Source: Mobula hypostoma
Lineage: Eukaryota
DNA length: 64,000 bases
Assembly: GCF_963921235.1 (NCBI RefSeq)
Contig: NC_086097.1
Coordinates: 52,454,001-52,518,000, forward strand
Direction: 5' to 3'
Shown one piece after another: positions 4,182 through 55,624 of the stretch. Below the pieces are notes generated by a model. That model worked only from the letters and a program-made list of their open reading frames with translations. It searched no databases and was not told the origin of the DNA. How positions within the stretch are numbered: position 1 is the stretch's first letter; every line of letters begins with the position of its first letter. Both the position numbers and the translations under genes were made by a program.

Positions 4182-5609
4182 CTAATAAAATAAAATGGTT
4201 TTGAAACAAATTCTGATAAAACTTGCGATTCTCTCAAAGAGGCTGTGGTAACATCCCTTGTATTAGACCCATAGTGGACGATATCGGCTGGAAATTCTGC
4301 ACTCTCAGAGGTACATTAAATGAACGCAAAGTGGATTGACAAGATCACTGTGTTTCAGGAGTGCCTTGGACAAGCATTTCTGGAATAATTGGTCCAAATT
4401 CTCTCGGCAATATTCCCAAGGGAATTGCATGGGGAATGACTCTATTAAAAGTGTGCCTCAATTGAGCAATCTCACTGATGTACAAGGACAGTTCTCTGCA
4501 GGAAATGACCTGTTAGATGTTCAGAACATCGAGCAATACAGTACAAAGCACAGGAACAGGCCCACTGGCCAAAATTGTCAGTGTCAAATGCAATGTCAAA
4601 TTAAATCAAGTCTCTTACTGGCACATGATTCATTAAACAAATTTATAAGCAAATCAGTTTACAGGAAAGAAAGCAACCTTGAGCAAATGAATTTTAGTTC
4701 CACGAGTTTCATGTAATATTTTTAATTTATCACTGGAGTTGATCCGTATTCTATTGGTACTCAGTACTGTTTATATTTTCAACTTGCATTTTACTGCTTA
4801 TTACAAGAATAACTACCAAAGTTTCTTAATAGTTTTTTTATGGTTCAAAATCTTCATTGTGTTTATTCCGAAGAACTTGTAGCAGGTAGAAGCCACATGT
4901 TTTTGTGCAGAACATTCTTATATTGTGGTTGTAACAATTTGAATTGAGAACAGAAGATTTTAAGTTACAGGATTACTGCCTGAGAAAAATACAAGAAATG
5001 TAGAAAATGTTCAGTCAAAATCGACACAAGAGGAGACATTTTTGAAGAAAAGGAACAGCTTTAAGGGGCTTCATTCTGTAATTTGCAAATGCTCCATCTT
5101 CAGTTTTGAAATGTTTTGATGCCTCGTCTACAAACCACATATATTTCTGGCTCTTGGGCTTAAGAGATACAGAAGTTTCATAAAATTAGAAACTTTCAAT
5201 ACAAGGTGAGTTCCTTTGAAGAAGAAACGGAAGGCAGCAGAACAGCTGTGGAAAAGACCAGTCCGTAGACATAAAGAATGCAAGAGGTATTTCAAAACAA
5301 TCTACAATTGAACAGACTGACAGGAGAGACAGGGGGAAGCAGTCAGAAGGAGAGCCAGACCTTTTGACTATGGATGTGATCTGACATTCCTAGTCATACC
5401 TACAGGCCAGCTTTAATCAGTGGTTTAAAGCCAATCACAATCATAAGAGATGTGTTGTCCATATCATTCATTACCATGCTAATCAGTTTCTATCAACTAT
5501 ACCGGTGCTTTGAAAAATGCCAATGAGTCTCTCAACAATAATTAAAGATTTTTTAAGATCTTGTTTTTGCTCAATAGCGGTCATTAACTTAATTATATTC
5601 TTAACTGAC

Positions 5610-5861
5610 CTGGATGCCCACAACGTGGTTGAGCAGATCCAGGTGCTGTCCTAGTCCCAGCAATTTCCCGTCCATTTTCATCCACACACCAGCAGTGGCC
5701 TGTGCTGCTTTGACATTGCATCGGCCTGAAGTTCCCCTCGTCATCACACTGAGGGATGTAGAGTCCCACCCGAGGTTCAGATCCAAATGCAGTCAACTCC
5801 GTTTGTAATCTCTCTCGTTGCTCTTCACATGCAGTTTTACGGCGTTCACTGGTTGTTAAAG
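5610..5861 (-). CDS. NID2: TY-domain exon (252 bp, class A)
   Basis: ttttgatcAG|CT TTA ACA acceptor, G|GTCAGT donor; LTTSERRKTACEEQRERLQTELTAFGSEPRVGLYIPQC...RCGHP. Confidence 0.9.
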
Positions 5862-6327
5862 CTGATCAAAATAAACAGATTGTCAAATACTCAAAGTAGT
5901 GCTTTGGGACCGGACCCAATGCCGCAATGTGACAGGGGAACAGTCAACCCTCTTGGGAAATAAAGCTGCTCAAGTAGGGACAGCACTGTGGAACAAGTTG
6001 TAAAGTGGTTATGGAAAAATATAGGGCTGGTCCACAAGTTAAAGGACTAAACTGGGATAAAGCTGATCGTGATACCAGTAGACAAGAACATGCAAAGGTT
6101 GATTGGGAGATATTGTTAGCAGGTAAAGGTATCACTGAGTTCCAAATCAGAAACTTCATTAATTAAAGTCCCTTTGAACTTCAAATGTTAACACTGATCA
6201 TGCTGTTTAACATGCTGTGCGATGGCCCCTTGGGTGTTATGGTTGTTAATGCAAATGACATTTTTAGCTTCTATTGAATGTACATGTGATAAATAAATCT
6301 GAACTAAAATCCAATGGCCTCACTTAC

Positions 6328-6564
6328 CTGGCACCTCACAGCGTGGTTGACCAGTTCCAGGTGCTGTTCTAGTCCCTGCAACCTCCTGTCCATTCTCGTA
6401 CACACACCAACAGTATCCTGTGCTGCCGTGACATTGCATCGGCCTGAAGTTCCCCTCGTCATCACACTGAGGGATGTAGAGTCCAACAAGAAGTCCGTGC
6501 TGGCTCCCCTCTGCTTGCAACCGTTCTCGCTGCTGCTCACAGGCAGACTTCGGGCGCTCACTGG
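6328..6564 (-). CDS. NID2: TY-domain exon (237 bp, class B)
   Basis: ctgcAG|CC AGT acceptor, G|GTAAGT donor; [33 protein letters not shown]...RCEVP. Confidence 0.9.
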
Positions 6565-7571
6565 CTGCAGATCAATTCAAGAAGGAATCTGTTACTGAGC
6601 AACAGTGGAAATATTTTAAACTGAGCTGTGTCATTTTTCTTCTTGCTGACTGTGTTGTCAGTTTACAGGGCATCAGGCAAGCCAGCAGGTTGTGTGACAT
6701 TGTGCCTGACGTGTTCAGCCTTTTGCTGCAATGGATGCTAATTGCTTGTGCAGAACAAGGATAAGCTGGATTGTCATTAAGGAGACAATTTAAATTGGGG
6801 TTTCAATGTTTTACATCTCTGTACGACTGAATGAGGAGAAAAATAAGAAACACAGAAAACATCCAATTAGAAGAGAGAAAGAAAGAGAGACAGGAAAAGC
6901 TGAAAATGCAGAACAGAGAAAAAAAATGACACAGATATATTTGATTTTGTGAGTCCATCTTAGACTTTTCTTAATTTTCCCTTTCGATTTAGACAGGTGC
7001 AATAAATAAAACAAACTTTGAATGTCTTGTTTTTGGAGCTCACATTGTGAAATATTTCTATTTGTTAACTGGGTGTGAGAAAGTCAGTTTATAGGGATAC
7101 ATAGTGTCATCAGCAGAATTCTTCTTCCCATAGATTTCGGGTGCAAGTTAAGGGGTTTAGATGGGATTTGAGGGGATTTGTTTTTGCAACTCAAAAAACA
7201 CCGCCTGAAGAGCTGCTGGAAGTAGCTACTCCCAGAGTTTAAGAAACAGCTAAAAAAAAAAGTACTGTACTTGAATTGCCAAAGTGTAGAAAGCTACTGA
7301 CCTAACACTTACGAATGGGATTCGTATCAGTAGGTACATTGGATAGAATAAACATGGTGGGCTGAAGGGCCTGTGCTGTAAGATGCTATGGGCCTTATTG
7401 ACACTTCACAGTTATAGCTGACACAAGATGCCTGAATAAATTCTTCCAATGATAATCTAAGGCTATGAAAAACACAGACGTGCTTCTGCAAATCGCAGAA
7501 TATTATCCTTTGTTATAAAATAAATTCCTTATGCATTGTAAAACAGTTGGTTTAATTTTAACCTGACTAAC

Positions 7572-7823
7572 CTGGAAGCCCACAACGTGGTTGAGCAGAT
7601 CCAGGTGCTGTCCTCGTCCCAGCAACTTCCTGTCCATTTTCATCCACACACCAGCAGTGGCCTGAGCTGCTTTGACATTGCATCGGCCTGAAGTTCCCCT
7701 CGTCATCACACTGAGGGATGTAGAGTCCCACCCGAGGTTCAGATCCAAATGCAGTCAACTCCGTTTGTAATCTCTCTCGTTGCTCTTCACATGCAGTTTT
7801 ACGGCGTTCACTGGTTGTTAAAG
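7572..7823 (-). CDS. NID2: TY-domain exon (252 bp, class A)
   Basis: gatcAG acceptor, G|GTTAGT donor, open TY domain. Confidence 0.9.
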
Positions 7824-8284
7824 CTGATCAAAATAAACAGATTGTCAAATACACTAAGTAGTGCTTTGGGACCGGACCCAATGCCGCAATGTGACAGGGG
7901 AACAGTCAACCCTCTTGGGAAATAAAGCTGCTCAAGTAGGGACGGCACTGTGGGACAAGTTGTAAAGTGGTTATGGAAAAAGATAGGGCTGGTCCACAAG
8001 TTAAAGGACTAAACTGGGATAAAGCTGATCATGATACCAGTAGACAAGAACATGCAAAGGTTGATTGGGAGATATTGTTAGCAGGTAAAGGGATCACTGA
8101 GTTCCAAATCAGAAACTTCATTAATTAAAGTCCCTTTGAGCCATATTTTAACACTGATCATGTTTAACATGCTGTGAGCTGGCCCCTTGATTGTTATGGT
8201 TGTTAATGCAAATGACATTTTTAGCTTCTATTAAATGTACATGTGATAAATAAATCTGAACTTAAATCCAATGGCCTCACTTAC

Positions 8285-8521
8285 TTGGCACCTCACAGCG
8301 TGGTTGACCAGTTCCAGGTGCTGTCCTCGTCCCTGCAACCTCCTGTCCATTCTCGTACACACACCAACAGTATCCTGTGCTGCCGTGACATTGCATCGGC
8401 CTGAAGTTCCCCTCGTCATCACACTGAGGGATGTAGAGTCCAACAAGAAGTCCGTGCTGGCTCCCCTCTGCTTGCAACCGTTCTCGCTGCTGCTCACAGG
8501 CAGACTTCGGGCGCTCACTGG
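8285..8521 (-). CDS. NID2: TY-domain exon (237 bp, class B)
   Basis: ctgcAG acceptor, A|GTAAGT donor, open TY domain. Confidence 0.9.
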
Positions 8522-8991
8522 CTGCAGATCAATTCAAGAAGGAATCTGTTACTGAGCAACAGTGGAAATATTTTAAACTGAGCTGTGTCATTTTTCTTCT
8601 TGCTGACTGTGTTGTCAGTTTACAGGGCATCAGGCAAGCCAGCAGGTTGTGTGACATTGTGCCTGACGTGTTCAGCCTGTTGTTACAATGGATGCTAATT
8701 GCTTGTGCAGAACAAGGATAAACTGGATTGTCATTAAGGAGACAATTTAAATTGAGGTTTCAAGGTTTTACATTTCTGTACAACTGAATGAGGAGAAATG
8801 AAAGAAATATAGAAACCATCCAATTAGAAGGGAGAAAGAAAGAGGGACTGCAAAACATGCAAAACCTGAAAAGCCAGAACTGAGAAAAAAAAAGCACAGA
8901 TATATTTAAATTTTGGCATCTTTCTTAGATTTTTCTTAATTTTCCCTTTCAATTTGGACAGGTACAATAAAGAAAAAGCGAATTTTGATTT

Positions 8992-16487: not shown

Positions 16488-16579
16488 TCCCAGGATATGA
16501 TCCTTTGTTATAAAATAAATTCCATAAGCATTGTCAAACAGTTTGTTTAATTTTGACCCTGACTAACACCCTGACTAAC

Positions 16580-16831
16580 CTGGATGCCCACAACGTGGTT
16601 GAGCAGATCCAGGTGCTGTCCTAGTCCCAGCAATTTCCCGTCCATTTTCATCCACACACCAGCAGTGGCCTGTGCTGCTTTGACATTGCATCGGCCTGAA
16701 GTTCCCCTCGTCATCACACTGAGGGATGTAGAGTCCCACCCGAGGTTCAGATCCAAATGCAGTCAACTCCGTTTGTAATCTCTCTCGTTGCTCTTCACAT
16801 GCAGTTTTACGGCGTTCACTGGTTGTTAAAG
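16580..16831 (-). CDS. NID2: TY-domain exon (252 bp, class A)
   Basis: gatcAG acceptor, G|GTTAGT donor; peptide matches the exon at 5610-5861. Confidence 0.9.
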
Positions 16832-17297
16832 CTGATCAAAATAAACAGATTATCAAATACTCAAAGCAGTGCTTTGGGACCGGACCCAATGCCGCAATGT
16901 GACAGGGGAACAGTCAACCCTCTTGGGAAATAAAGCTGCTCAAGTAGGGACGGCACTGTGGGACAAATTGTAAAATGGTTATGGAAAAAGATAGGGCTGA
17001 ACCACAAGTTAAAGGACTAAACTGGGATAAAGCTAATCGTGATACCAGTAGACAAGAACATGCAAAGGTTGATTGGGAGATATTGTTAGCAGGTAAAGGT
17101 ATCACTGAGTTCCAAATCAGAAACTTCAATAATTAAAGTCCCTTTGAACTTCAAATGTTAACACTGATCATGCTGTTTAACATGCTGCGCGATGGCCCCT
17201 TGGGTGTTATGGTTGTTAATGCAAATGACATTTTTAGCTTCTATTGAATGTACATGTGATAAATAAATCTGAACTTAAATCCAATGGCCTCACTTAC

Positions 17298-17534
17298 CTG
17301 GCACCTCACAGCGCGGTTGACCAGTTCCAGGTGCTGTCCTCGTCCCTGCAACTTCCTGTCCATTCTCGTACACACACCAACAGTATCCTGTGCTGCCGTG
17401 ACATTGCATCGGCCTGAAGTTCCCCTCGTCATCACACTGAGGGATGTAGAGTCCAACAAGAAGTCCGTGCTGGCTCCCCTCTGCTTGCAACCGTTCTCGC
17501 TGCTGCTCACAGGCAGACTTCGGGCGCTCACCAG
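17298..17534 (-). CDS. NID2: TY-domain exon (237 bp, class B)
   Basis: ctgcAG acceptor, G|GTAAGT donor, open TY domain. Confidence 0.9.
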
Positions 17535-18541
17535 CTGCAGATCAATTCAAGAAGGAATCTGTTACTGAGCAACAGTGGAAATATTTTAAACTGAGCTGTG
17601 TCATTTTTCTTCTTGCTGACTGTGTTGTCAGTTTACAGGGCATCAGGCAAGCCAGCAGGTTGTGTGACATTGTGCCTGACGTGTTCAGCCTTTTGCTACA
17701 ATGGATGCTAATTGCTTGTGCAGAACAAGGATAAGCTGGATTGTCATTAAGGAGACAATTTAAATTGGGGTTTCAATGTTTTACATCTCTGTACGACTGA
17801 ATGAGGAGAAAAATAAGAAACACAGAAAACATCCAATTAGAAGAGAGAAAGAAAGAGAGACAGGAAAAGCTGAAAATGCAGAACAGAGAAAAAAAATGAC
17901 ACAGATATATTTGATTTTGTGAGTCCATCTTAGACTTTTCTTAATTTTCCCTTTCGATTTAGACAGGTGCAATAAAAAAAACAAACTTTGAATGTCTTGT
18001 TTTTGGAGCTCACATTGTGAAATATTTCTATTTGTTAACTGGGTGTGAGAAAGTCAGTTTATAGGGATACATAGTGTCATCAGCAGAATTCTTCTTCCCA
18101 TAGATTTCGGGTGCAAGTTAAGGGGTTTAGATGGGATTTGAGGGGATTTGTTTTTGCAACTCAAAAAACACCGCCTGAAGAGCTGCTGGAAGTAGCTACT
18201 CCCAGAGTTTAAGAAACAGCTAAAAAAAAAGTACTGTACTTGAATTGCCAAAGTGTAGAAAGCTACTGACCTAACACTTACGAATGGGATTCGTATCAGT
18301 AGGTACATTGGATAGAATAAACATGGTGGGCTGAAGGGCCTGTGCTGTAAGATGCTATGGGCCTTATTGACACTTCACAGTTATAGCTGACACAAGATGG
18401 CCTGAATAAATTCTTCCAATGATAATCTAAGGCTATGAAAAACACAGATGTGCTTCTGCAAATCGCAGAATATTATCCTTTGTTATAAAATAAATTCCTT
18501 ATGCATTGTAAAACAATTGGTTTAATTTTAACCTGACTAAC

Positions 18542-18793
18542 CTGGAAGCCCACAACGTGGTTGAGCAGATCCAGGTGCTGTCCTCGTCCCAGCAACTTCC
18601 TGTCCATTTTCATCCACACACCAGCAGTGGCCTGTGCTGCTTTGACATTGCATCGGCCTGAAGTTCCCCTCGTCATCACACTGAGGGATGTAGAGTCCCA
18701 CCCGAGGTTCAGATCCAAATGCAGTCAACTCCGTTTGTAATCTCTCTCGTTGCTCTTCACATGCAGTTTTACGGCGTTCACTGGTTGTTAAAG
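18542..18793 (-). CDS. NID2: TY-domain exon (252 bp, class A)
   Basis: gatcAG acceptor, G|GTTAGT donor, open TY domain. Confidence 0.9.
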
Positions 18794-19255
18794 CTGATCA
18801 AAATAAACAGATTGTCAAATACACTAAGTAGTGCTTTGGGACCGGACCCAATGCCGCAATGTGACAGGGGAACAGTCAACCCTCTTGGGAAATAAAGCTG
18901 CTCAAGTAGGGACGGCACTGTGGGACTAGTTGTAAAATGGTTATGGAAAAAGATAGGGCTGGTCCACAAGTTAAAGGACTAAACTGGGATAAAGCTGATC
19001 ATGATACCAGTAGACAAGAACATGCAAAGGTTGATTGGGAGATATTGTTAGCAAGTAAAAGGGATCACTGAGTTCCAAATCAGAAACTTCATTAATTAAA
19101 GTCCCTTAGAGCCATATTTTAACACTGATCATGTTTAGCATGCTGTGAGCTGGCCCCTTGATTGTTATGGTTGTTAATGCAAATGACATTTTTAGCTTCT
19201 ATTAAATGTACATGTGATAAATAAATCTGAACTTAAATCCAATGGCCTCACTTAC

Positions 19256-19492
19256 CTGGCACCTCACAGCGTGGTTGACCAGTTCCAGGTGCTGTCCTCG
19301 TCCCTGCAACCTCCTGTCCATTCTCGTACACACACCAACAGTATCCTGTGCTGCCGTGACATTGCATCGGCCTGAAGTTCCCCTCGTCATCACACTGAGG
19401 GATGTAGAGTCCAACAAGAAGTCCGTGCTGGCTCCCCTCTGCTTGCAACCGTTCTCGCTGCTGCTCACAGGCAGACTTCGGGCGCTCACCGG
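19256..19492 (-). CDS. NID2: TY-domain exon (237 bp, class B)
   Basis: ctgcAG acceptor, G|GTAAGT donor, open TY domain. Confidence 0.9.
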
Positions 19493-20498
19493 CTGCAGAT
19501 CAATTCAAGAAGGAATCTGTTACTGAGCAACAGTGGAAATATTTTAAACTGAGCTGTGTCATTTTTCTTCTTGCTGACTGTGTTGTCAGTTTACAGGGCA
19601 TCAGGCAAGCCAGCAGGTTGTGTGACATTGTGTCTGATGTGTTCAGCCTGTTGTTACAATGGATGCTAATTGCTTGTGCAGAAGAAGGATAAACTGGATT
19701 GTCATTAAGGAGACAATTTAAATTGGGGTTTCAATGTTTTACATCTCTGTACGACTGAATGAGGAGAAAAATAAGAAACACAGAAAATATCCAATTAGAA
19801 GAGAGAAAGAAAGAGAGACAGGAAAAGCTGAAAATGCAGAACAGAGAAAAAAAATGACACAGATATATTTGATTTTGTGAGTCCATCTTAGACTTTTCTT
19901 AATTTTCCCTTTCGATTTAGACAGGTGCAATAAAAAAAACAAACTTTGAATGTCTTGTTTTTGGAGCTCACATTGTGAAATATTTCTATTTGTTAACTGG
20001 GTGTGAGAAAGTCAGTTTATAGGGATACATAGTGTCATCAGCAGAATTCTTCTTCCCATAGATTTCGGGTGCAAGTTAAGGGGTTTAGATGGGATTTGAG
20101 GGGATTTGTTTTTGCAACTCAAAAAACACCGCCTGAAGAGCTGCTGGAAGTAGCTACTCCCAGAGTTTAAGAAACAGCTAAAAAAAAAGTACTGTACTTG
20201 AATTGCCAAAGTGTAGAAAGCTACTGACCTAACACTTACGAATGGGATTCGTATCAGTAGGTACATTGGATAGAATAAACATGGTGGGCTGAAGGGCCTG
20301 TGCTGTAAGATGCTATGGGCCTTATTGACACTTCACAGTTATAGCTGACACAAGATGTCTGAATAAATTCTTCCAATGATAATCTAAGGCTATGAAAAAC
20401 ACAGACGTGCTTCTACAAATCGCAGAATATTATCCTTTGTTATAAAATAAATTCCTTATGCATTGTAAAACAGTTTGTTTAACTTTAACCTGACTAAC

Positions 20499-38520: not shown

Positions 38521-41135
38521 TTAGATAGAAACATAGAAAACCTACAGCACGATACAGGCCCTTCGGCCTGCAATGCTGTGCTAAACATGTACTTACTTTA
38601 GAAATTACCTCAGGTTACCCATAGCCCTCTATTTTTCTAAGCTCCATGTACCTGTCCAGGAGTCTCTTAAAAGACCCTATTGTATCCGCCTCCACCACCG
38701 TCACCAGCAGCCCATTCCATACACTCACCACTCTCTGCATAAAGAACTTACCCCTGACATCTCCCCCGTACCTAGTTCCAAGCACCTTAAAACTGCGCCC
38801 TCTCGTGCTAGCCATTTCAGCCCTGGGAAAAAGCATGTGACTATCCACACGATCAATGCCTCTCATTATCTTGTACATCTCTGTCAGGTCACCTCTCATC
38901 CTCCGTCACTTCAAGGAGAAAAGGCCGAGTTCACTCAGCCTGTTCTCATAAGGCATGCTCCCCAATCCAGGCAACATCCTTGTAAATCTCTTCTTCTTTC
39001 TGTGGTTTCCACGTCCTTCCTGTAATGAGGTGACCAGAACTGAGCACAGTACTCCAGGCAGGGTCTGACCAGGATTCTATATAGCTGTAACATTACCTTT
39101 CAGCTCTTCACCTCAATCCTGCGGTTGATGAAGGCCGATGCATTGTATGCCCTCTAAACCACAGAGTCAACCTGCGCAACAGCTTCGAGTGTCCTATGGA
39201 CTCGGACACCAAGATCCTTCTGATCCTCCATGCTGCCAAGTATCCTCCATTAATATTATATTCTGCCATCATATTTGATCTACCAAAATGTACCACCTCA
39301 CACTTATCTGGGATGAACTCCATCTGCCACTTCTCAGTGCAGTTTTGCATCCTATTGATGTCCTGCTGTAACCTCTGACAGCCCTCCACACTATCCACAA
39401 CACCCCCAACCTTTGTGTCATCAGTAAATTTACTAACCCATCCCTCCACTTCCTCATCCAGGTCATTTATCAAAATCATAAAGAGAAGGAGTCCCAGAAC
39501 AGATCCCTGAGGCACACCACTGGTCACCGATCTCCAACCACTCTTTGCCTTCTGTGAGTAAGCCAATTCTGGATCCACAAAACAAGGTCCTTTTGGATCC
39601 CATGCTTCCTTACTTTCTCAATAAGCTTTGCATGGGGTACCTTGTCAAATGCCTTGCTGAAATCCATATACACTACATCTGCAGCTCTACCTTCATCAAT
39701 GTGTTTAGTCACATCCTCAAAAACTTCAGTCAGGTTGCCTATGACAAAGCCATGCTGACTATTCCTAATCATATTATGCCTCTCCAAATGTTCATAAATC
39801 CTACCTCTCAGGATCTTTTCCATCAATTTATCAACTACTGAAGTAAGACTCACTGGCCTATAGTTTCCTGGGCTATCTCTACTCCCTTTCTTGAATAAGG
39901 GAACAACATTTGCAACCCTCCAATCCTCCAGAACCTCTCCTGTCCCCATTGCCAGAGGCTCAGCAATCTCCTCCCTTGCCTCTCACAGTAGCCTGGGGTA
40001 TATCTCATCTGGTCCCGGAGACTTATCCAACTTGGTGCTTTTCAAAAGCTCCAGCACATCCTCTTTCTTAATGTCTATATGCTCAAGCTTTTTAATCCGC
40101 TGTAAGTCATCCCTACTATCGCCAAGGTTCTTTTCTGTAGTGAATACTGAAGCAAAGTATGCATTAAGTATCTCTCCTCCAGTTCCATACACACTTTTCC
40201 ACTGTCACAATTGATTGGTCCTATTCTCTCACATTGTATCCCCTTGCTCTTCACATACTGGTAGAATGCCTTGGGGTTTTCCTTAATCCTGCTCGCCAAG
40301 GCCTTCTCATGGCCCCTTCTCGATCTCCTAATTTTATTCTCAAGCTCCTTCCTGCTGGCCTTATAACCTTCTAGATCGCTATCATTACCTAGTTTTTTGG
40401 AACTTTCGTAAGCTCTTCTTTTCTTCTTGACTAGATTTTCAACAGCCTTTTTACACTACGGTTCCTGTACCCTCCCATCCTTTCCCTGTCTCACTGGAAG
40501 ATACCTATGCAGAAAACCTCGCAAATATCCCCTGAACATTTGCCACATTTCTGCTGTACATTTCCCTGAGAACATCTGTTCCCAATTTATACTTCCAAGT
40601 TCCTGCCTGATAGCTTCATATTTCCCCTTACTCCAATTAAACACTTTCTTAACTTGTCTGTTCCTATCCCTCTCCAATGCTATGGTAAAGGAGATAGAAT
40701 TGTGATCACCATCTCCAAAATGCTCTCCCATTGAGAGATCTGACACCTGACCAGGTTCATTTCCCAATACCAGATCAAGTACAGCCTCTCCTCTCGTAGG
40801 CTTATCTACATATCGTGTCAGGAAACCTTCCTGAACACATCTAACAAACTCCACCCCATCTAAACTTCTTGTTCTAGAGAGATGCCAATCAATATTTGGG
40901 AAATGAAAATCTCCTACCATGACAACCCTGTTATTATTTCACCTTTCCAGAATCTGTCTCCCTATCTGCTCCTCTATGTCCCTGTTACTATTGGGTGGTC
41001 TATAAAAAAATACTCTGTAGTGGCCACAATATCATAGCTCCAAGTACTGATCTACGCTCTAAGCTCAGCCGCTTTGTTCATGCTTCTTGCATTAAAATAG
41101 ACACATCTCAAACCATCGGACTGAGCACATCCCTT

Positions 41136-42346: not shown

Positions 42347-42583
42347 CTGGCACCTCACAGCGCGGTTGACCAGTTCCAGGTGCTGTTCTAGTCCCTGCAA
42401 CCTCCTGTCCATTCTCGTACACACACCAACAGTATCCTGTGCTGCCGTGACATTGCATCGGCCTGAAGTTCCCCTCGTCATCACACTGAGGGATGTAGAG
42501 TCCAACAAGAAGTCCGTGCTGGCTCCCCTCTGCTTGCAACCGTTCTCGCTGCTGCTCACAGGCAGACTTCGGGCGCTCACTGG
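42347..42583 (-). CDS. NID2: TY-domain exon (237 bp, class B)
   Basis: ctgcAG acceptor, G|GTTGGT donor; near-identical to the exon at 6328-6564. Confidence 0.88.
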
Positions 42584-44312
42584 CTGCAGATCAATTCAAG
42601 AAGGAATCTGTTACTGAGCAACAGTGGAAATATTTTAAGTTGAGCTGTGTCATTTTTCTTCTTGCTGACTGTGTTGTCAGTTTACAGGGCATCAGGCAAG
42701 CCAGCAGGTTGTGTGACATTGTGCCTGATGTGTTCAGCCTGTTGTTATAATGGATGCTAATTGCTTGTGCAGAACAAGGATAAGCTGGATTGTTATTAAG
42801 GAGACAACTTAAATTGGGGTTTCAAGGTTTTACATCTCTGTACAACTGAATGAGGAGAAAAGAAAGAAATACAGAAACCATCCAATTAGAAGGGAGAAGG
42901 AGACGGACTGCAAAACCTGAAAAGGCAGAATGATGAGATAAAGAACAGCATAGATCATCTTGATGTTGGTGATCTATCAATTCAGACAGGTTTTGCAAAT
43001 GAAAAGCAAACCTTTGATTATTTGACTTCGGGACCCCACTTTGCAAAATATTTCTTATTCTTCTTCTTTAATATTTCTTTATTCTGGGTATGGGCAAGTC
43101 AGTTTAAAGAGATACATAGTGCAGAGAGTTGAAGTCTTTTTACCATGGATTTAAGGTGAGAGTTAAGAGGGTTAGATGGGATCTGAGGGGAATTTTTCTC
43201 TCTAACGCACAAAGCTCTGCCTGAAGAGCTGATAGAGGTTAAACTCTTGCAATGTTTAGGAATCACTTGAATTGCCAAGGTGCAGAAAGCTACTGATCTA
43301 ACACTTGTGAATGGGCTGCATATCAGTAGGTACATTGGGTGGGATGAACATGGTGGGGTGAAGGGCCTGTGCTACACGATGCTATGGGCCTTATGACACT
43401 TCACAGTTACAGCTGACACAAGAATAAATTCTTCCAATGATAATCTAATGCTATGAATCACATAAAGGTGCTTTTGCAAGTTCCAGAACAAATTTAGAAC
43501 TTAAAAGCAAGCAAGTGCAAGAGACTGGACAGACTGAGGCAGGACAGCAAGTGAGAAAGGCTATGCTGCATTTATTTGAATGGAAAAAGCCTGACAGGTG
43601 AGGAAAGTGAGCTCGGAGCATGAACAGGCACTTGGGATTGATACTATAGCATGAGTGAGGGATGGGCACATGTGGCAACTCAATGCTCTGCGGTATACCT
43701 GCTGCAGGTATGAGAGAGGTTGGGATAAGAGAGGAAGGGAGTTGAATTTTTGATTAGGGAGAATGTTACAGCAGTATTTTTTTTTAATTAATCCTGGGGG
43801 ACGTTCAGTGAGGCGACATGCATAGAAACCAAAAAAAATAAGAATAGAGTGATCACTTTGATGATGTCCCAGAATGGTCAGGGGGAATTAGAACAGCAAA
43901 TACGTTGGGAGATCATAGATAGCTTCAGGAACAATAAAGCTGTAATAGTAGGTGATTTTAACTTCCACTAATATTGACTCAGACAGACATAGTAAAGGAT
44001 TAGATAAAGGTTTCTTGATCAATTCGAAGACTACCCTTTAGACAGGGTAACAGTTGACCCTCTTGGGAAATAAGACTGGTCAAGTTGGGTGTCACTTTGG
44101 GACCAGTTTGAAGAAAGATAGGGATGATCCAGAAGTAAAAGACTTAAACTGGGACAAGGCTTAATCTGATATCATTAGGCACAAATTTGCAAAGTTTGAT
44201 TGGAAAATGTAGTTAGCAAGTAGATGGATCACTGAGTTCCCAGTCAGAAATTTCAATAAAATCCCTTTGAATTTCTCTATTTACTATAATCTTACTTATT
44301 ACCCTGACTAAC

Positions 44313-46040: not shown

Positions 46041-47337
46041 TCTACAATATACTGTAGCTAAGTCAACAGTACAAACAGAAGCAAATTCCATCACTGACAG
46101 GGTTCTATAAAAAGTGCCTTGTAAAGGCCACAACCCTTTGTTCACATAAAGGAGTATTACAACCAGGGATTCTGTTCTATTTAACTTAGAATTTTGATTT
46201 GTGAATCACATGCTCCTTTTTCACAGTACAGCCCTATAATCAAGGAAAATTGTAAAGCATTGAAACACTGGTTTCCTCAGCTGCGTACATCTAGGGAAGA
46301 CAATATCCGGCCCTGCCAAAAGTGTGAGCCCCTCCCCCCCCAATCCCATCTGTGTGGATTCTGTGTAATTTGTTACCCTGTTACAAATTACTGCCACGAA
46401 ATAACCAACAGTACACTGCACACGATTAAAGGAATTATATTTATGAACCTTAACTAAAGAGTTAGTAAAGAATAACTAAAAGAATTGGGCCCATTCTAAT
46501 TAAACAGTCAAATGTGCACAAGTTGGAGCTCCTCTGGAACTTCTCTGTCACTCATGTGCTGGGCCCTCGGTCAACGTGACTGCACACACCACCTACCGAA
46601 TGTCGTTCGCAATCCATCTCCAACAAACGGGTCTCCCACCGGATCGTATGTTGTGACCGGTTCTCCCCAGCGTCTTTTCTCTTCATCTCCTCTCGAGCAA
46701 AAGCCCAAGACCAACCTTAATGTCCCTCATCAAGAAAAGCCTCCTGCTAATTGATGGCACGCATTCTACATCATCCCTCATCTTCAACAATAACCCAACC
46801 TGGCTGAAAGCAGAACAGACTGTTCTTACAGAGCTGCTAAGTGAAATATCTACAGCATCACAGTAACGATGTGAACCAGGGCATTACACTCCCCCCCACC
46901 CCACCCCCCAACCACAAATAGAAATAATTTGTCATCCCGTCATTAACAACACCATTTTCAAAGGAATTTCATGATTTTCAAAGGAATTTGTAAATGGTAG
47001 CGACATATCTCACTGGGGGATAGTCTGTTCCCCCGGTGCTACATAGGCCAGCCTATCTGCGGGTCTCCTGACTCTTTGAGACCTCCATATCCCGTCCAGG
47101 GGCAGGGGCTGATTTAATCTTTCCTGCTGCTGATCCTTCAGACTCGCCACAGAGCTCTCTGACTAGGTGTAGGCTCCAGGTCAGGCTCTGGGCCAACACA
47201 CACTTCTTGTCCGAGAGGCATGGAGAATCTTGACATCCTCTGGTTTCACCCGGAAAACAGGTACATCCGGTGTGTGACTCTCCACTTCTTAGAGCCTAGT
47301 TGCCCAGTGATCAGCCAACTAGTGCTTCCCAGGTAGC

Positions 47338-47780
47338 CAGTCAGTCAGTCAGTGGGTGCCGTCCCGAATCCGGGGTTGGCGGCTATGCACCTCCATCTTC
47401 TTCGATCTTGCGACAGCACCAAGTACAGCCTCTCCTCCAGTTTGTTCTCACTGGCCGCCTTGGCACCACCCACCGCTGCCCCCGCCGAACTTGAGCCCGA
47501 GGCCGTGTCGGCCTCCAGCCACGACCACTTCTTCGAGCTCGGCCCTTCCTTAGGCGGCGGCCTTGGGCAGGTCCAGGCACACGGTGCAGCGCCCAGGTTC
47601 ATCATGTCTCTTCTAACTAAGTGCATAACATACGATTCGTAGATACGTGGTGAGGCTTTAGTCTCTTCCACGGAAGACAGCCGTTGGCTCACAAGGAGCT
47701 CATCCACCCTTTGTCAGGTCTTGTTTTTTTTTAGTCCTGCTGAGTACAGCCTCTCTCCGACCATCTGGCACCCGACCGAA
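47338..47780 (-). mobile_element. RTE-like non-autonomous insert inside Gypsy
   Basis: VRRDMMNLG..SQDRRRWR C-terminal signature and a (GACT)n tail; interrupts the integrase C-terminal region. Confidence 0.5.
47413..47590 (-). pseudogene. ZFTRAF1: Circularly permuted fragment of ZFTRAF1/CYHR1 coding sequence
   Basis: Minus strand encodes [11 protein letters not shown] (47590-47556), then in another frame PKEGPSSKKWSWLE..ENKLEERLYLVL. From memory, CYHR1 reads KKR..[21 protein letters not shown]. The W and L differences fit CpG transitions. Confidence 0.75.
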
Positions 47781-50241
47781 GACCTCAGCTAATTCATAAG
47801 CCTTTTTCAGCTCCCTTCTCATATTAGACGCATAGTTCAGATAAGTCTTCTCTTTATCAGCCTCACCCATGGGTATCTGGTAATACCCACTTCTCAAGTC
47901 CAGCACACTGAACCATGTTGCACCATTCAGGCAGGCCAGCACGTCTTTGATTCTTCAGACTGTATACTGGTCGGGGAACGTACACCTGTTCAGAGTCCAA
48001 TAGTCCATCCGTTCCTTGCCTTTCTTCTTCCTGGCCACTACTACTCAGTGATGATCCCAGCTTCCTTCAACTTCCACAGATGCTGCCAAACGTCTTCCAC
48101 TTCTGTAGGTGCCAGTTGCCTCAACTTTTCTCTGAAGCTACTGTCCTCTGTCACCCAGATGGTGTGGCAAATGCTCTTGGAACAACCCACATGAAACTCT
48201 TCAGTAGAAAAGACATCTTCTAGCTTCAATATTTTCTCTATCAACCTCTTCTTCTAACCTCCATGTACTGGGGAGTCCCCAAAGTTAAAAGACTCGGCAG
48301 TCATCTTTCCTCTTTTTGGAGAGAATTTCTCCCTGACTTGTCTCACAGGGACACTAGACATTACCATCACCGGGAAGAGGTACGTCATTAGCATCCTCCG
48401 CCTGAGGGTGACCTTCTGCTCCGAAGTGTTCCTGACACTCACTGTCATCCTGTTCGCCTGTACAAGCGAGGCCTTCTGCAGTTCGGGCCTCACCAGTGCC
48501 CCAGCAGGTAAGCCTGACTCCTCTTTGTGGTCTTCCAGAGCACCCACCTCATGCATTCCGGGAAATTTGCGGTTTCCCCATCACTGTCACCACTTCCCCA
48601 GGCCGTAAGGTGAACCACACAGTCCTTCGTTTACGATCATCATCCAGCCCAGTGCAGCCACGCACTTCCTCAAAAGCAGCTTGGAACACAGGGTGAATGG
48701 ACAATGCCTTCAGAAAGCTCTCTCCAACTTTCTCTTTGCAGGCTCCCACTAGCCTCCTCACATTAGGAGTATTCATCCCCAGGAGAATTGAAGCTTCGTC
48801 CCGCTCGATCGGGTCCGGACAAACCAGCACTAATGTATCAGGGACCTCAGCTACTCCCACATCTGCCTCTGAAAACTCCAGCTTCAATGACAAGTAACCA
48901 TCGTACGGATAGTCATCCGTACTAAGACCCCAGATCTCTAGCGCACTGAGTGGCGTCAATGGTAAATGCATCAAATACCGGTTGTAAAACGAGTACAGTA
49001 GAGTAACCTGGGATCCTGTGTCAAGTATGGCTCCAGCATAATACCCTCAATCCATAGCGATACACTGGAGCTTGGCCCCTCTGAGCCTTCAGGAGTAGGG
49101 TGTTTTGCTTTTGGGTGTTCCTTGATATATTGCTGGATATGTGCTCCCCCTGAGAAGCCAGGCCGTTCCCTCACTGGGTCTCTCCGCTTAGATACCCGGG
49201 GGCTCACACTCTTGCCTGAAGTGACCCTCTTCACCACAGTTATAACAGACAATACCGGCCGCTCCCCTTCTCGCGGGACCCAGGTCTCGCTAGCAGCCCT
49301 CTGCGTAGTCCGTCCCCTTAGGGGATCCACCTATCAGCTCTGTCGTACTGGGGGCCACCATAACAACTGGGACGTCTCAGTTCTAAACTCTGCCACAAGC
49401 TCCTTCACCACTCCCCGGGGCGGGTTATTAGTGGTCAGCTCAGCCAAAGGGACCACTTACCAAGGACCGTACCCTGTGGACGGAGGCCTCCCGCGCCTCC
49501 ATCGCATCCTCCTCCTCTCTTACTTCAGCTCAACAAACGAGGGGGGGGGCTCGTCTTACAAGACATTCTGCGACCACAAGCGATCAGATCCGGCAAATGG
49601 GTGCCTTTCGCCACTTGGTCCATTCTTAACTGATTCACCTCAGCCATTTGAATGCCCCCCTACGCCGCAAGCCATTTAGCTGCCTCACTAGCCGAAAAAT
49701 GGAGACAGAAAGCTTCTCCTCCTTCTCCTGAAACTTGTTCTGAAACCCCGTGATAAACTCCAGTGGACCTTCCGTCGCGCAAAACATCTTTTCTAGCGCT
49801 TCCATGTAGCCCGCAGAGGCAGAAAGGGATTCTTCTGTGTCTTTATGGCTCTCACTCCATCAACAGCCGGTCCTTCAAACCTTTAACCAATCGCTCTCTG
49901 TTTTCATCATCAGGGCACTGCTACTCATCCAGCAACTGAGGGGTCTGCTCTGCCCAAGTCTCATACTCCTCCCCCCCCCTTTCTGGGTGGGCTTCGTTCC
50001 TGAGAACAGGCTGAGCCTGCGATAGCTGGGAATTTGAACCTGGGCATTTTGCCATTTATTCGCCAGGGAGGTAAGGGCCGCTACCAACTCAGAATGCTCA
50101 GCCCTTGCTGGAGGACTCTTTAGACCCTCTACATCAGACTCCCTTGCTCCGCAGAAATGAGAGCAACTTGTCTTTAAAGTCTCTGCCCCCAGCTACGGAA
50201 AACCTTGTTTCCAATTCGACACACTTGCCTTCACTCCCCTC

Positions 50242-50390
50242 CTCCCGGGAAGTGTGGACAGTCCACGGCCCCCTCTCTCCCGGGAAGTGTGGACAGTCCA
50301 CGGCCCCCTCTCTCCCGGGAAGTGTGGACAGTCCACGGCCCCCTCTCTCCCGGAAAGTATGGACAGCTCACGGCCCTCGCTCTCCCGGGG
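50242..50390 (+). repeat. 35-bp minisatellite (CTCCCGGGAAGTGTGGACAGTCCACGGCCCCCTCT), ~4 copies, within Gypsy gag
   Basis: Units start at 50242, 50277, 50312 and 50347. Confidence 0.9.
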
Positions 50391-50849
50391 CCCCAAATGT
50401 ACCGGACGGTTCTACTGCCGTTACGTCCGTGCTAATCTGAAGTAAAACAAAGTCTGTGGCCGCCGTTTTATCAAACCTCAGCTCCACCCCTACAGCATAC
50501 ATAACCACGTATCGTAATCACTTTACTGAAGAATAATTTAACACAGACTTAAAAACACAACATAAAAAACTAAAAATTCAAAAACTAGAATGTCAGCACT
50601 TCAGAAGTGTTCTTCCCCTTTTGCCCAGTACTTAGTTGAACCAACTCTCGCAGCTATTGTAGCCAGTAATCTTTTTGGATAAGTCTCTAGTCCCTTTTAA
50701 CAACATGATAGAGTAAGATTTGACCATTCCTTATTACAAAATTGCTCAGGCTGTGCCAGGTCATTTGGGGTGGAACACTGGTCAGTAATCTTAAGGTCTT
50801 GCCAGAGATATTCGATTGAGTTAAAGACAGGTCGCTGGGTCAGTCAAGT

Positions 50850-54840: not shown

Positions 54841-54988
54841 TTGTGAAGAATCTTCCATGTATCCCCATCAGGCAGATAAAATCTCAAAGGTTTGGAGAGC
54901 TGATGCCTATTGAAGCAGAGTTTATGCAAGTGTGCATTTCAAGTTAAGAAACTATTGGACTCTGGCATAATAGAGCCCTGCTGACATA

Positions 54989-55586
54989 CAAGGGGTGATT
55001 GATAATTTCGTGGCCTAAGGTAGAAGGAGTCAATTTTAGAAAACCTAGCACATTTATTTTTCAACATAGTCCCCTCCTACATTTACACACTTAGTCCAGC
55101 GGTCGTGGAGCACATGGATCTTGGACCTCCAGAAAGTGTCCACAGCAGGGGTGGTTGATAAGTTCGTGGCCTAAGGTAGAAGGAGATGAGTTCTACAGCT
55201 CTCGTTACATGCACATGCAGTTCAACTCTTTGAGTGATTATGCAGAAAGTTTGAAGTTAATAACTCATCAGAGGTGATCGATAAGTTTGTGACCTAAGGT
55301 AGAAGGAGATGAGTTATTAACCAAATTTTCTGCATAATCACTCAAAGAGTTGAACTGCATGTGCATGTAACGAGAGCTGTACAAGTCATCTCCTTCTACC
55401 CTAGGCTATGAACTTATCAATCACTCATGCTGTGGACAGTTTCTAGAGGTCCAAGATTTGTGTGCTCCACGACTACTGGACTAAGTGTATAAATGTAGGA
55501 GGGGACTATGTTGAAAAATAAATGTGCTAGGTTTTCTAAAATTGACTCCTTCTACCTTAGGCCACAAACTTATCAATCACCCCTCG
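54989..55586. mobile_element. Palindromic Tc1/mariner-type MITE
   Basis: TA TSDs; termini CAAGGGGTGATTGATAA / TTATCAATCACCCCTCG; the two halves are long inverted repeats. Confidence 0.88.
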
Positions 55587-55624
55587 TACATTGTTGTGGC
55601 TTGATTTTCTCAAGAACTGCAACC

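What the first reader, a model, noticed from the sequence alone, without database searches (positions are those of the whole stretch)
47413..47590. Circularly permuted ZFTRAF1/CYHR1 gene fragment captured inside nested retroelements
Seen: a 178-bp GC-rich island whose minus strand starts GC TGC ACC GTG TGC CTG GAC CTG CCC AAG GCC and ends GAG GAG AGG CTG TAC TTG GTG CTG T. Joining end to start rebuilds KLEERLY(S)[13 protein letters not shown] with no base lost, matching the CYHR1 RING start as I recall it. The internal junction is a GCC repeat. Inference: a host fragment was circularised by microhomology (eccDNA or circular RNA/cDNA), reopened elsewhere and integrated into an RTE-like insert within a Gypsy element. 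If the composite is multicopy, it is a non-autonomous retroelement carrying a permuted host exon piece.
Basis: partly seen in the sequence, partly recalled or inferred. Interest (0 to 1): 0.75.

Follow-up and report, generated by a model that had tools for sequence, protein, structure and literature searches.

The report
Rotated host-exon piece inside retroposon
A 178-base piece of the ZFTRAF1 gene, with its two halves swapped as if a tiny circle had been cut once, is real, but it is most likely the built-in core of a short jumping-gene family, so this spot is one ordinary copy and not the place where the capture happened.

Summary
Confirmed. The island 47413-47590 (minus strand) is ZFTRAF1 coding sequence in swapped order. 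Against sawfish ZFTRAF1, block B is residues 114-123 (10 of 10 identical) and block A is residues 60-112. Codon 113 is split between the island's two ends with no gap or overlap. The inner junction fits a 5-base overlap (chance about 0.01) and no GT-AG splice register.

The island sits in sense between about 190 and 75 bases that look like the two ends of an RTE LINE. That resemblance is recalled; my homology searches found no RTE. The unit ends in an (ACTG)4 tail, has no target duplication, and lies in a decayed Gypsy.

Unchecked notes of this scan report the same piece at 11 other places in this genome and estimate 700 to more than 1000 copies. Best reading: it was captured once in the founder of a bipartite RTE-type retroposon and then copied passively. 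For the origin of the rotation, a nucleosome-sized DNA circle (about 45%) narrowly beats reverse-transcriptase template switching (about 40%). I obtained no genome, no reads and no native DNA, so copy number and junction bases remain unverified here.

The parts
47559..47590 (-). Block B: ZFTRAF1 bases 2-3 of codon 113 plus residues 114-123 (start of the RING finger); downstream of A in the native gene, upstream of A here
   Evidence: tblastn 10 of 10 identical to three batoid proteins; Pfam Sina_RING starts at residue 114 of P0001
47413..47563 (-). Block A: ZFTRAF1 residues 60-112 plus base 1 of codon 113
   Evidence: 68.5% over 54 columns, E 2e-21 to Pristis; CpG-type decay
47559..47563 (-). 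Inner junction: 5 bases readable both as the end of B and as the start of A (inferred microhomology, closure point of the circle or loop)
   Evidence: codon compatibility, chance about 0.01; native DNA not seen
47591..47780 (-). Left arm, about 190 bases; probably the 5' untranslated part and first codons of an RTE-type LINE. The outer boundary is approximate, set where the Gypsy frame ends
   Evidence: RTE resemblance recalled and stated in earlier notes; no significant Rfam head, no homologue, fold not better than shuffles (z 0.18)
47354..47412 (-). Right arm: RTE-like ORF end (DRxxWR-type motif, recalled) running into the tail
   Evidence: translation; no database confirmation
47338..47353 (-). 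(ACTG)4 microsatellite tail, the 3' end of the retroposon
   Evidence: only run of three or more ACTG units on either strand of the window
47345..47605 (-). 86-codon open frame from an ATG in the left arm, through B (shifted frame) and A (native frame), to the stop in the right arm; probably incidental (chance about 1 in 10)
46400..50840 (-). Host: decayed, internally deleted Gypsy-type LTR retrotransposon (ends approximate) interrupted by the composite at 47780/47337; no target-site duplication
   Evidence: PNMA gag E 2e-5 at 49723-50052 and RVT_1 E 6e-5 at 47781-48080, both just below Pfam's cut-off; longest shared flank word 5 bases, chance level; no LTR pair found

Best explanation
This is one passive, decaying copy of a short non-autonomous retroposon built as RTE 5' end, rotated ZFTRAF1 piece, RTE 3' end with tail. 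Step 1 (shown): 178 bases of ZFTRAF1 N-terminal coding sequence are present as an exact cyclic shift. Step 2 (inferred): that piece was closed into a one-nucleosome-sized circle by end joining at a 5-base microhomology inside the GC-rich 5' part of the gene. Step 3 (inferred): the circle was opened once, at codon 113, and captured between the two ends of an RTE element, either in place of its interior or in an already shortened derivative. Step 4 (inferred; rests mainly on unchecked notes): the founder kept both RTE ends, so RTE proteins copied it in trans to many sites. Step 5 (shown in part): one copy landed in an older, broken Gypsy here and has since lost CpGs. Its 5' end or target duplication was lost at insertion or by a later deletion. 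Within this frame I put a DNA microcircle at about 45%, an RT-made rotation at about 40% and other routes at about 15%. No function is implied.
For: Exact swap and split codon 113. A 5-base overlap at the inner junction. A size of 178 lies in the 175-185 class of germline eccDNA, which is GC-rich, 5'-enriched and microhomology-closed in mouse (PMC10581685 passages). The unit has a microsatellite tail, and arms of about 190 and 75 bases match RTE-N2_Lch, 5' 214 plus 3' 70 (PMC5786205). CpG observed/expected is 0.69-0.89 across all three parts against 0.33-0.48 in the Gypsy host, as expected for one younger unit. As a lead only: earlier notes place the same 176-181-base piece at 11 other sites, 7 on this sequence piece between -44.7 and +35.0 Mb and 4 on other pieces.
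Against: No RTE sequence was retrieved to confirm either arm (negative). There is no target-site duplication and no second copy in this window. Neither arm folds better than shuffles. Copy number was not measured here, because no genome is held and no read-level data were obtained. The piece is in sense to the element, as RT chimeras are (PMC13174262 passages). Human cyclic insertions almost all stay within 10 Mb of their source (80 of 82 on the same chromosome); this could not be tested for the founder.
Confidence: 0.72

Rival explanations
1. The same family history, but the rotation was made by the RTE reverse transcriptase on RNA. It copied the RTE 3' end and jumped onto ZFTRAF1 RNA at codon 113. 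It copied back to residue 60, hopped at the microhomology to residue 123, stopped on meeting its own RNA-cDNA hybrid or a nick at codon 113, and jumped back to the RTE 5' end. A once-nicked intra-exonic circular RNA gives the same product.
For: The piece is in sense and lies between two LINE-like ends. Retroviral RT makes exon-shuffled products at short homologies in vitro (PMC2923612 passages). LINE-1 chimeras by template switch are sense-oriented. Earlier notes report several RTE chimeras with host mRNA or first exons in this genome (unchecked). The opening site is mostly unpaired in the predicted circular fold (0.63-0.98 for 6 of 8 bases, mean 0.35), which is weak support.
Against: It needs three jumps, or a non-spliced RNA circle. 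It does not explain the mononucleosome size. The fold is no more stable than shuffles (z -0.97). No GT-AG register fits the junction, so ordinary back-splicing is unlikely (codon constraints).
Confidence: 0.35
2. A one-off event at this locus: a circle or repair patch was inserted into an RTE remnant already sitting in this Gypsy.
For: No second copy lies in the 64-kb window. There is no target duplication, and the host has several deletions.
Against: Eleven other sites with the same piece are reported by separate readers of other windows (unchecked). CpG content is uniform across the unit.
Confidence: 0.07
3. No circle: a fragment cut from a tandem duplication of this stretch in the source gene, or two independent DNA-repair template switches.
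For: GC-rich, low-complexity exons do duplicate (general knowledge). The exactness of the outer ends is uncertain by a few bases.
Against: The five full-length batoid sequences with an N-terminus (P0001-P0005) and the unnamed P0009 show the stretch once. Independent ends would close exactly with chance about 0.006, or within 5 bases about 0.06.
Confidence: 0.1
4. Assembly or library chimera.
For: No read support was obtained, and no listed run holds half of the stretch's words (best 0.36).
Against: CpG-type decay inside the piece needs evolutionary time, and the same piece is reported at many other sites.
Confidence: 0.02

Closest known systems
Bipartite non-autonomous RTE LINEs (Bov-A, RTESINE1/2, RTE-N2_Lch; Kojima 2018, PMC5786205, parts 1-2 of 5 read)
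   Same: A 5' piece of about 200 bases plus a 3' piece of about 70 bases with a microsatellite tail and no Pol III head; presumed mobilised in trans.
   Different: Here a host coding fragment lies between the two LINE pieces, and it is cyclically shifted. No such case appears in the parts read. RTE homology of the arms is not confirmed here.
eccDNA-mediated germline insertions with AB->BA order (bioRxiv 10.64898/2026.09.03.749254; section 7 and passages read, supplements not seen); cattle KIT circle (passage in PMC12722694)
   Same: Cyclic block order, full coverage, terminal microhomology.
   Different: Those are single, non-repetitive insertions, nearly all within 10 Mb of the source. This one appears to have become the core of a dispersed repeat.
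circRNA-derived pseudogenes (Dong et al. 2016, PMC4897178, part 1 of 2 read)
   Same: Non-colinear junction, no poly(A), retroelement neighbourhood, multiple copies from one circle (33 for circRFWD2).
   Different: Their junction is an exon-exon back-splice. Here it lies within continuous coding sequence with no GT-AG register.
LINE-host RNA chimeras (PMC13174262, passages read) and SVA_F1 carrying MAST2 exon 1 (recalled and named in earlier notes; not read)
   Same: A host 5' exon sequence in sense within a retroelement, and for SVA_F1 amplified as a subfamily.
   Different: The host piece is colinear and at the 5' end in those. Here it is internal and rotated.

Membership tests
Bipartite non-autonomous RTE LINE | 5' part homologous to the 5' UTR of an RTE LINE | tested here: inconclusive
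   No homologue retrieved; these libraries hold little vertebrate repeat DNA. Resemblance recalled.
Bipartite non-autonomous RTE LINE | 3' part homologous to the extreme 3' end of an RTE LINE | tested here: inconclusive
   The 21-aa piece gave no RTE hit; Atlas hits were all under 0.9. Motif resemblance recalled.
Bipartite non-autonomous RTE LINE | Microsatellite or poly(A) tail | tested here: met
   (ACTG)4 at 47353-47338, unique in the window
Bipartite non-autonomous RTE LINE | Dispersed multicopy family of fixed structure | not testable with these tools
   No genome held. Eleven other sites and 700 to over 1000 copies appear in unchecked notes.
Bipartite non-autonomous RTE LINE | Target-site duplication at the copy (mark of target-primed insertion; can be lost later) | tested here: not met
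   Longest shared flank word 5 bases, reached by 1871 of 2000 shuffles
Pol III SINE | tRNA, 5S or 7SL head | tested here: not met
   Rfam scan of 47593-47900 gave 5 matches, best E 0.39, all far below gathering; the copy may be 5'-truncated
eccDNA-mediated AB->BA insertion | Cyclic shift of source blocks with at least 95% coverage and at most 5% overlap | tested here: met
   At protein and codon level: residues 60-123 fully covered, overlap 5 of 178 bases
eccDNA-mediated AB->BA insertion | Terminal microhomology in the source DNA | tested here: inconclusive
   5 bases codon-compatible, chance 0.01; native DNA not seen
Germline microDNA (mononucleosomal eccDNA) | Size 175-185, GC-rich, 5' gene region | tested here: met
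   178 bases, GC 0.67, residues 60-123 of about 400; compatible, not diagnostic
Germline microDNA (mononucleosomal eccDNA) | Existence as a free DNA circle | not testable with these tools
   Needs Circle-seq
circRNA-derived pseudogene | Reversed exon-exon (back-splice) junction at canonical splice sites | tested here: not met
   From the codons allowed by residues 59-63 and 121-125, no register gives both a GT donor and an AG acceptor; one register allows a weak GC-AG pair (my reading). Exon borders themselves were not seen.

The most novel reading that the evidence does not exclude
A single mononucleosomal microDNA from a CpG-island exon entered the germline, became the body of a new RTE-driven SINE-like family and was amplified to about a thousand copies. 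This would be a traced origin for a SINE body, and a case of a microDNA fixed and multiplied in a vertebrate genome.
Probability: 0.3. Interest if true: 0.72.

Novelty: new variant of a known kind. Interest (0 to 1): 0.42.

Why it matters
The origin of SINE middle bodies is called enigmatic (PMC5786205), and heritable reinsertion of small DNA circles rests on few cases (PMC12722694 passages). A retroposon family whose core is a host exon piece with a base-exact circular footprint would link the two. Its many copies would let the founding junctions be reconstructed and dated. Hundreds of near-copies of a conserved ZFTRAF1 stretch would also confuse annotation and read mapping. This locus itself adds little: it is one more decayed copy of a family already noted repeatedly in this scan. 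Searches returned no paper describing this family or a rotated exon inside a retroposon. The library lacks most subscription journals and Repbase.

Tried and rejected
Whole genome: none held, so no copy count.

Read-level support: none obtained. The run listing had 20 of 24 rows holding part of the stretch, best share 0.36, with no RNA holder on record. These unlaid shares are not used as evidence.

RTE confirmation failed:
- 40-aa queries from each arm gave 0 of 6 and 0 of 7 candidates.
- phmmer of a 30-aa piece gave 4 hits; the two I opened were unrelated repeat proteins.
- Atlas top score 0.83, at chance level.
- Pattern scans gave 0, 115 and 9 matches. The 124 fetched loci share no more than 26 bases with the arms, i.e. 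chance seeds.
- No motif was found in paper texts or in the Kojima supplement (its alignments may be pictures).

Other negatives:
- Rfam: nothing significant in the left arm, and no twister or tRNA head.
- Folding: arms z 0.18 and 0.68; island z -1.0 circular and -1.4 linear.
- A 13-base word shared by block A and the left arm looked like a templated patch. It was rejected because an 18-base match to A also occurs at 40776-40793.
- The 86-codon frame was judged incidental.
- The size of the Gypsy deletion at the insertion site could not be measured (no PDB hit).
- Look-ups of earlier findings by sequence, by relatives and by a long word list were blank.

Full report
Setting. The window is vertebrate DNA rich in LINE-like reverse-transcriptase fragments and thyroglobulin type-1 exons. 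The only ZFTRAF1 hits were from rays and skates, so a batoid genome is likely. No whole genome is held, and I obtained no read-level data.

Observation. The letters and coordinates are correct. The island is 178 bases at GC 0.669, in the top 0.2% of the window. Its longer block, translated as 49 residues, found 3 proteins among 224 candidates, all ZFTRAF1/CYHR1: Pristis pectinata E 2.5e-6, Leucoraja E 0.05 and Amblyraja E 0.16. In all three the native order is block A, Cys113, block B. A local tblastn maps Pristis residues 60-112 to 47563-47414 and residues 114-123 to 47588-47559, 10 of 10 identical, so B precedes A in the window. The next-best alignment anywhere in the window has E 0.56. The chance of B's exact match near A is about 2e-11. 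Codon 113 is split: base 1 ends the island and bases 2-3 begin it, and compatibility ends immediately outside on both sides. This is an exact cyclic shift. One caution: those one or two terminal bases could belong to the flanks, so true breakpoints are uncertain by a few bases. Independent ends would close exactly with chance about 0.006, and within 5 bases about 0.06 (uniform model).

Inner junction. The five bases 47563-47559 read as part of residues 122-123 in B's frame and as residue 60 plus two-thirds of residue 61 in A's frame. Both residues are conserved in the three species; the chance is about 0.01. The next three codons each differ from Pristis by one base (chance 0.08; 0.30 against the skate), so another register a few bases along cannot be excluded without native DNA. 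From the codons these residues allow, no register yields both a GT donor and an AG acceptor; one allows a weak GC-AG pair. This is my reading, and exon borders were not seen. Three of four replacements in the conserved blocks are CpG-type transitions, as expected for a methylated, non-coding copy.

Flanks. On the minus strand the island is preceded by about 190 bases (47780-47591) and followed by 59 bases and an (ACTG)4 tail, the only such run in the window. The right arm ends an open frame with a DRxxWR-like motif, and the left arm ends in an ATG-led frame. I recall both as typical of RTE-clade LINE ends; no call confirmed it. Protein searches from each arm were blank, as were phmmer, Pfam, the Atlas, pattern scans, paper texts and one supplement. 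These collections are mostly microbial or protein-only, so the blanks say little. Rfam found no head RNA or ribozyme, and neither arm folds better than shuffles. CpG observed/expected is 0.70, 0.69 and 0.89 in left arm, island and right arm, against 0.33-0.48 in the surrounding Gypsy, which fits one younger unit. An 86-codon frame runs through the whole composite; two frame coincidences make that about 1 in 10, so I give it no weight.

Host. The composite interrupts a Gypsy-type element: PNMA gag E 2e-5 and RVT_1 E 6e-5, both under Pfam's cut-off, broken by stops and internal deletions. There is no target duplication. From general knowledge of Gypsy integrases, some tens of codons seem to be missing at the site, which I could not measure. 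A target deletion at insertion or a later deletion across the 5' junction would explain both features.

Copy number. No second copy lies in this window. Earlier notes of this scan report the same 176-181-base rotated piece at 11 other places, 7 on this sequence piece from 44.7 Mb upstream to 35.0 Mb downstream and 4 on other pieces (8 rows shown per call out of 14, 12 and 10). Their follow-ups estimate 700 to more than 1000 copies, one says thousands, and one gives a 488-base copy, so this 443-base copy may be 5'-shortened. These are unchecked AI notes and I treat them as a lead. They changed my reading from a local event to a family member. Eight flagged copies in about 80 Mb would be at least 0.1 per Mb, which is of the same order if the genome is a few gigabases (my rough inference).

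Mechanism. The best-supported account is a single capture in the founder of a bipartite RTE-type element, followed by copying in trans. Bipartite RTE derivatives with similar arm lengths are known (RTE-N2_Lch, 5' 214 plus 3' 70; PMC5786205, parts 1-2 of 5 read). For the rotation itself two routes are close. A DNA microcircle fits the size: mouse germline eccDNAs peak near 180, are GC-rich and 5'-enriched, and are closed at microhomologies (PMC10581685 passages). Any opened circle gives AB->BA (bioRxiv 10.64898/2026.09.03.749254, section 7 and passages; supplements closed). Against it, 80 of the 82 human cases stay on the source chromosome. An RT route fits the sense orientation and the position between LINE ends (PMC13174262 passages), and RT makes shuffled products at short homologies in vitro (PMC2923612 passages). 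An RT without RNase H that loops once would stall at its own hybrid, giving the same exact closure without any circle (inference). Exact closure therefore does not separate the two. I put them at about 45% and 40%. Canonical circRNA retroposition (PMC4897178, part 1 of 2 read) fails its defining junction test.

Novelty and score. Each ingredient is known: bipartite RTE elements, host-exon capture, and cyclic insertions. Their combination, a rotated intra-exonic piece as the fixed core of a retroposon family, was not found in my searches (some searches were background; PMC12722694 seen as passages; PMC8501958 as a listing only). I rate it a new variant of a known kind. The family is interesting. 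Interest 0.42.

Noticed in passing
window 610-45652, minus strand: 19 thyroglobulin type-1 exons (69-100% to the one at 42351-42590), far more than in a typical nidogen (recalled). Gene identity was not established; best PDB hits are thyroglobulin and saxiphilin. No further TY1 exon was found beyond 45652 and a crude EGF pattern found nothing, so whether the Gypsy is intronic is open.
   Followed up: partly
window 5604-8988 and 16574-19949; unit about 1.96 kb: Recent tandem and segmental duplications (93-97.5%) of TY1 exon pairs; an expanding exon array, or partly an assembly effect.
   Followed up: no
window 50207-50416: 35-base tandem repeat, about 5 units, in the Gypsy leader region.
   Followed up: no
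window 54987-55588: Long inverted repeat, 267-base arms at 93%, with internal sub-repeats; MITE- or foldback-like.
   Followed up: no
window about 47845: The Gypsy frame passes directly from the RT match into integrase-like sequence (recalled) in frame, i.e. a large internal deletion; no LTR pair was found at the element's ends.
   Followed up: partly
window 40776-40793, 47420-47437 and 47743-47755: An 18-base word of block A recurs at 40776 and 13 bases of it recur in the left arm; judged chance.
   Followed up: yes
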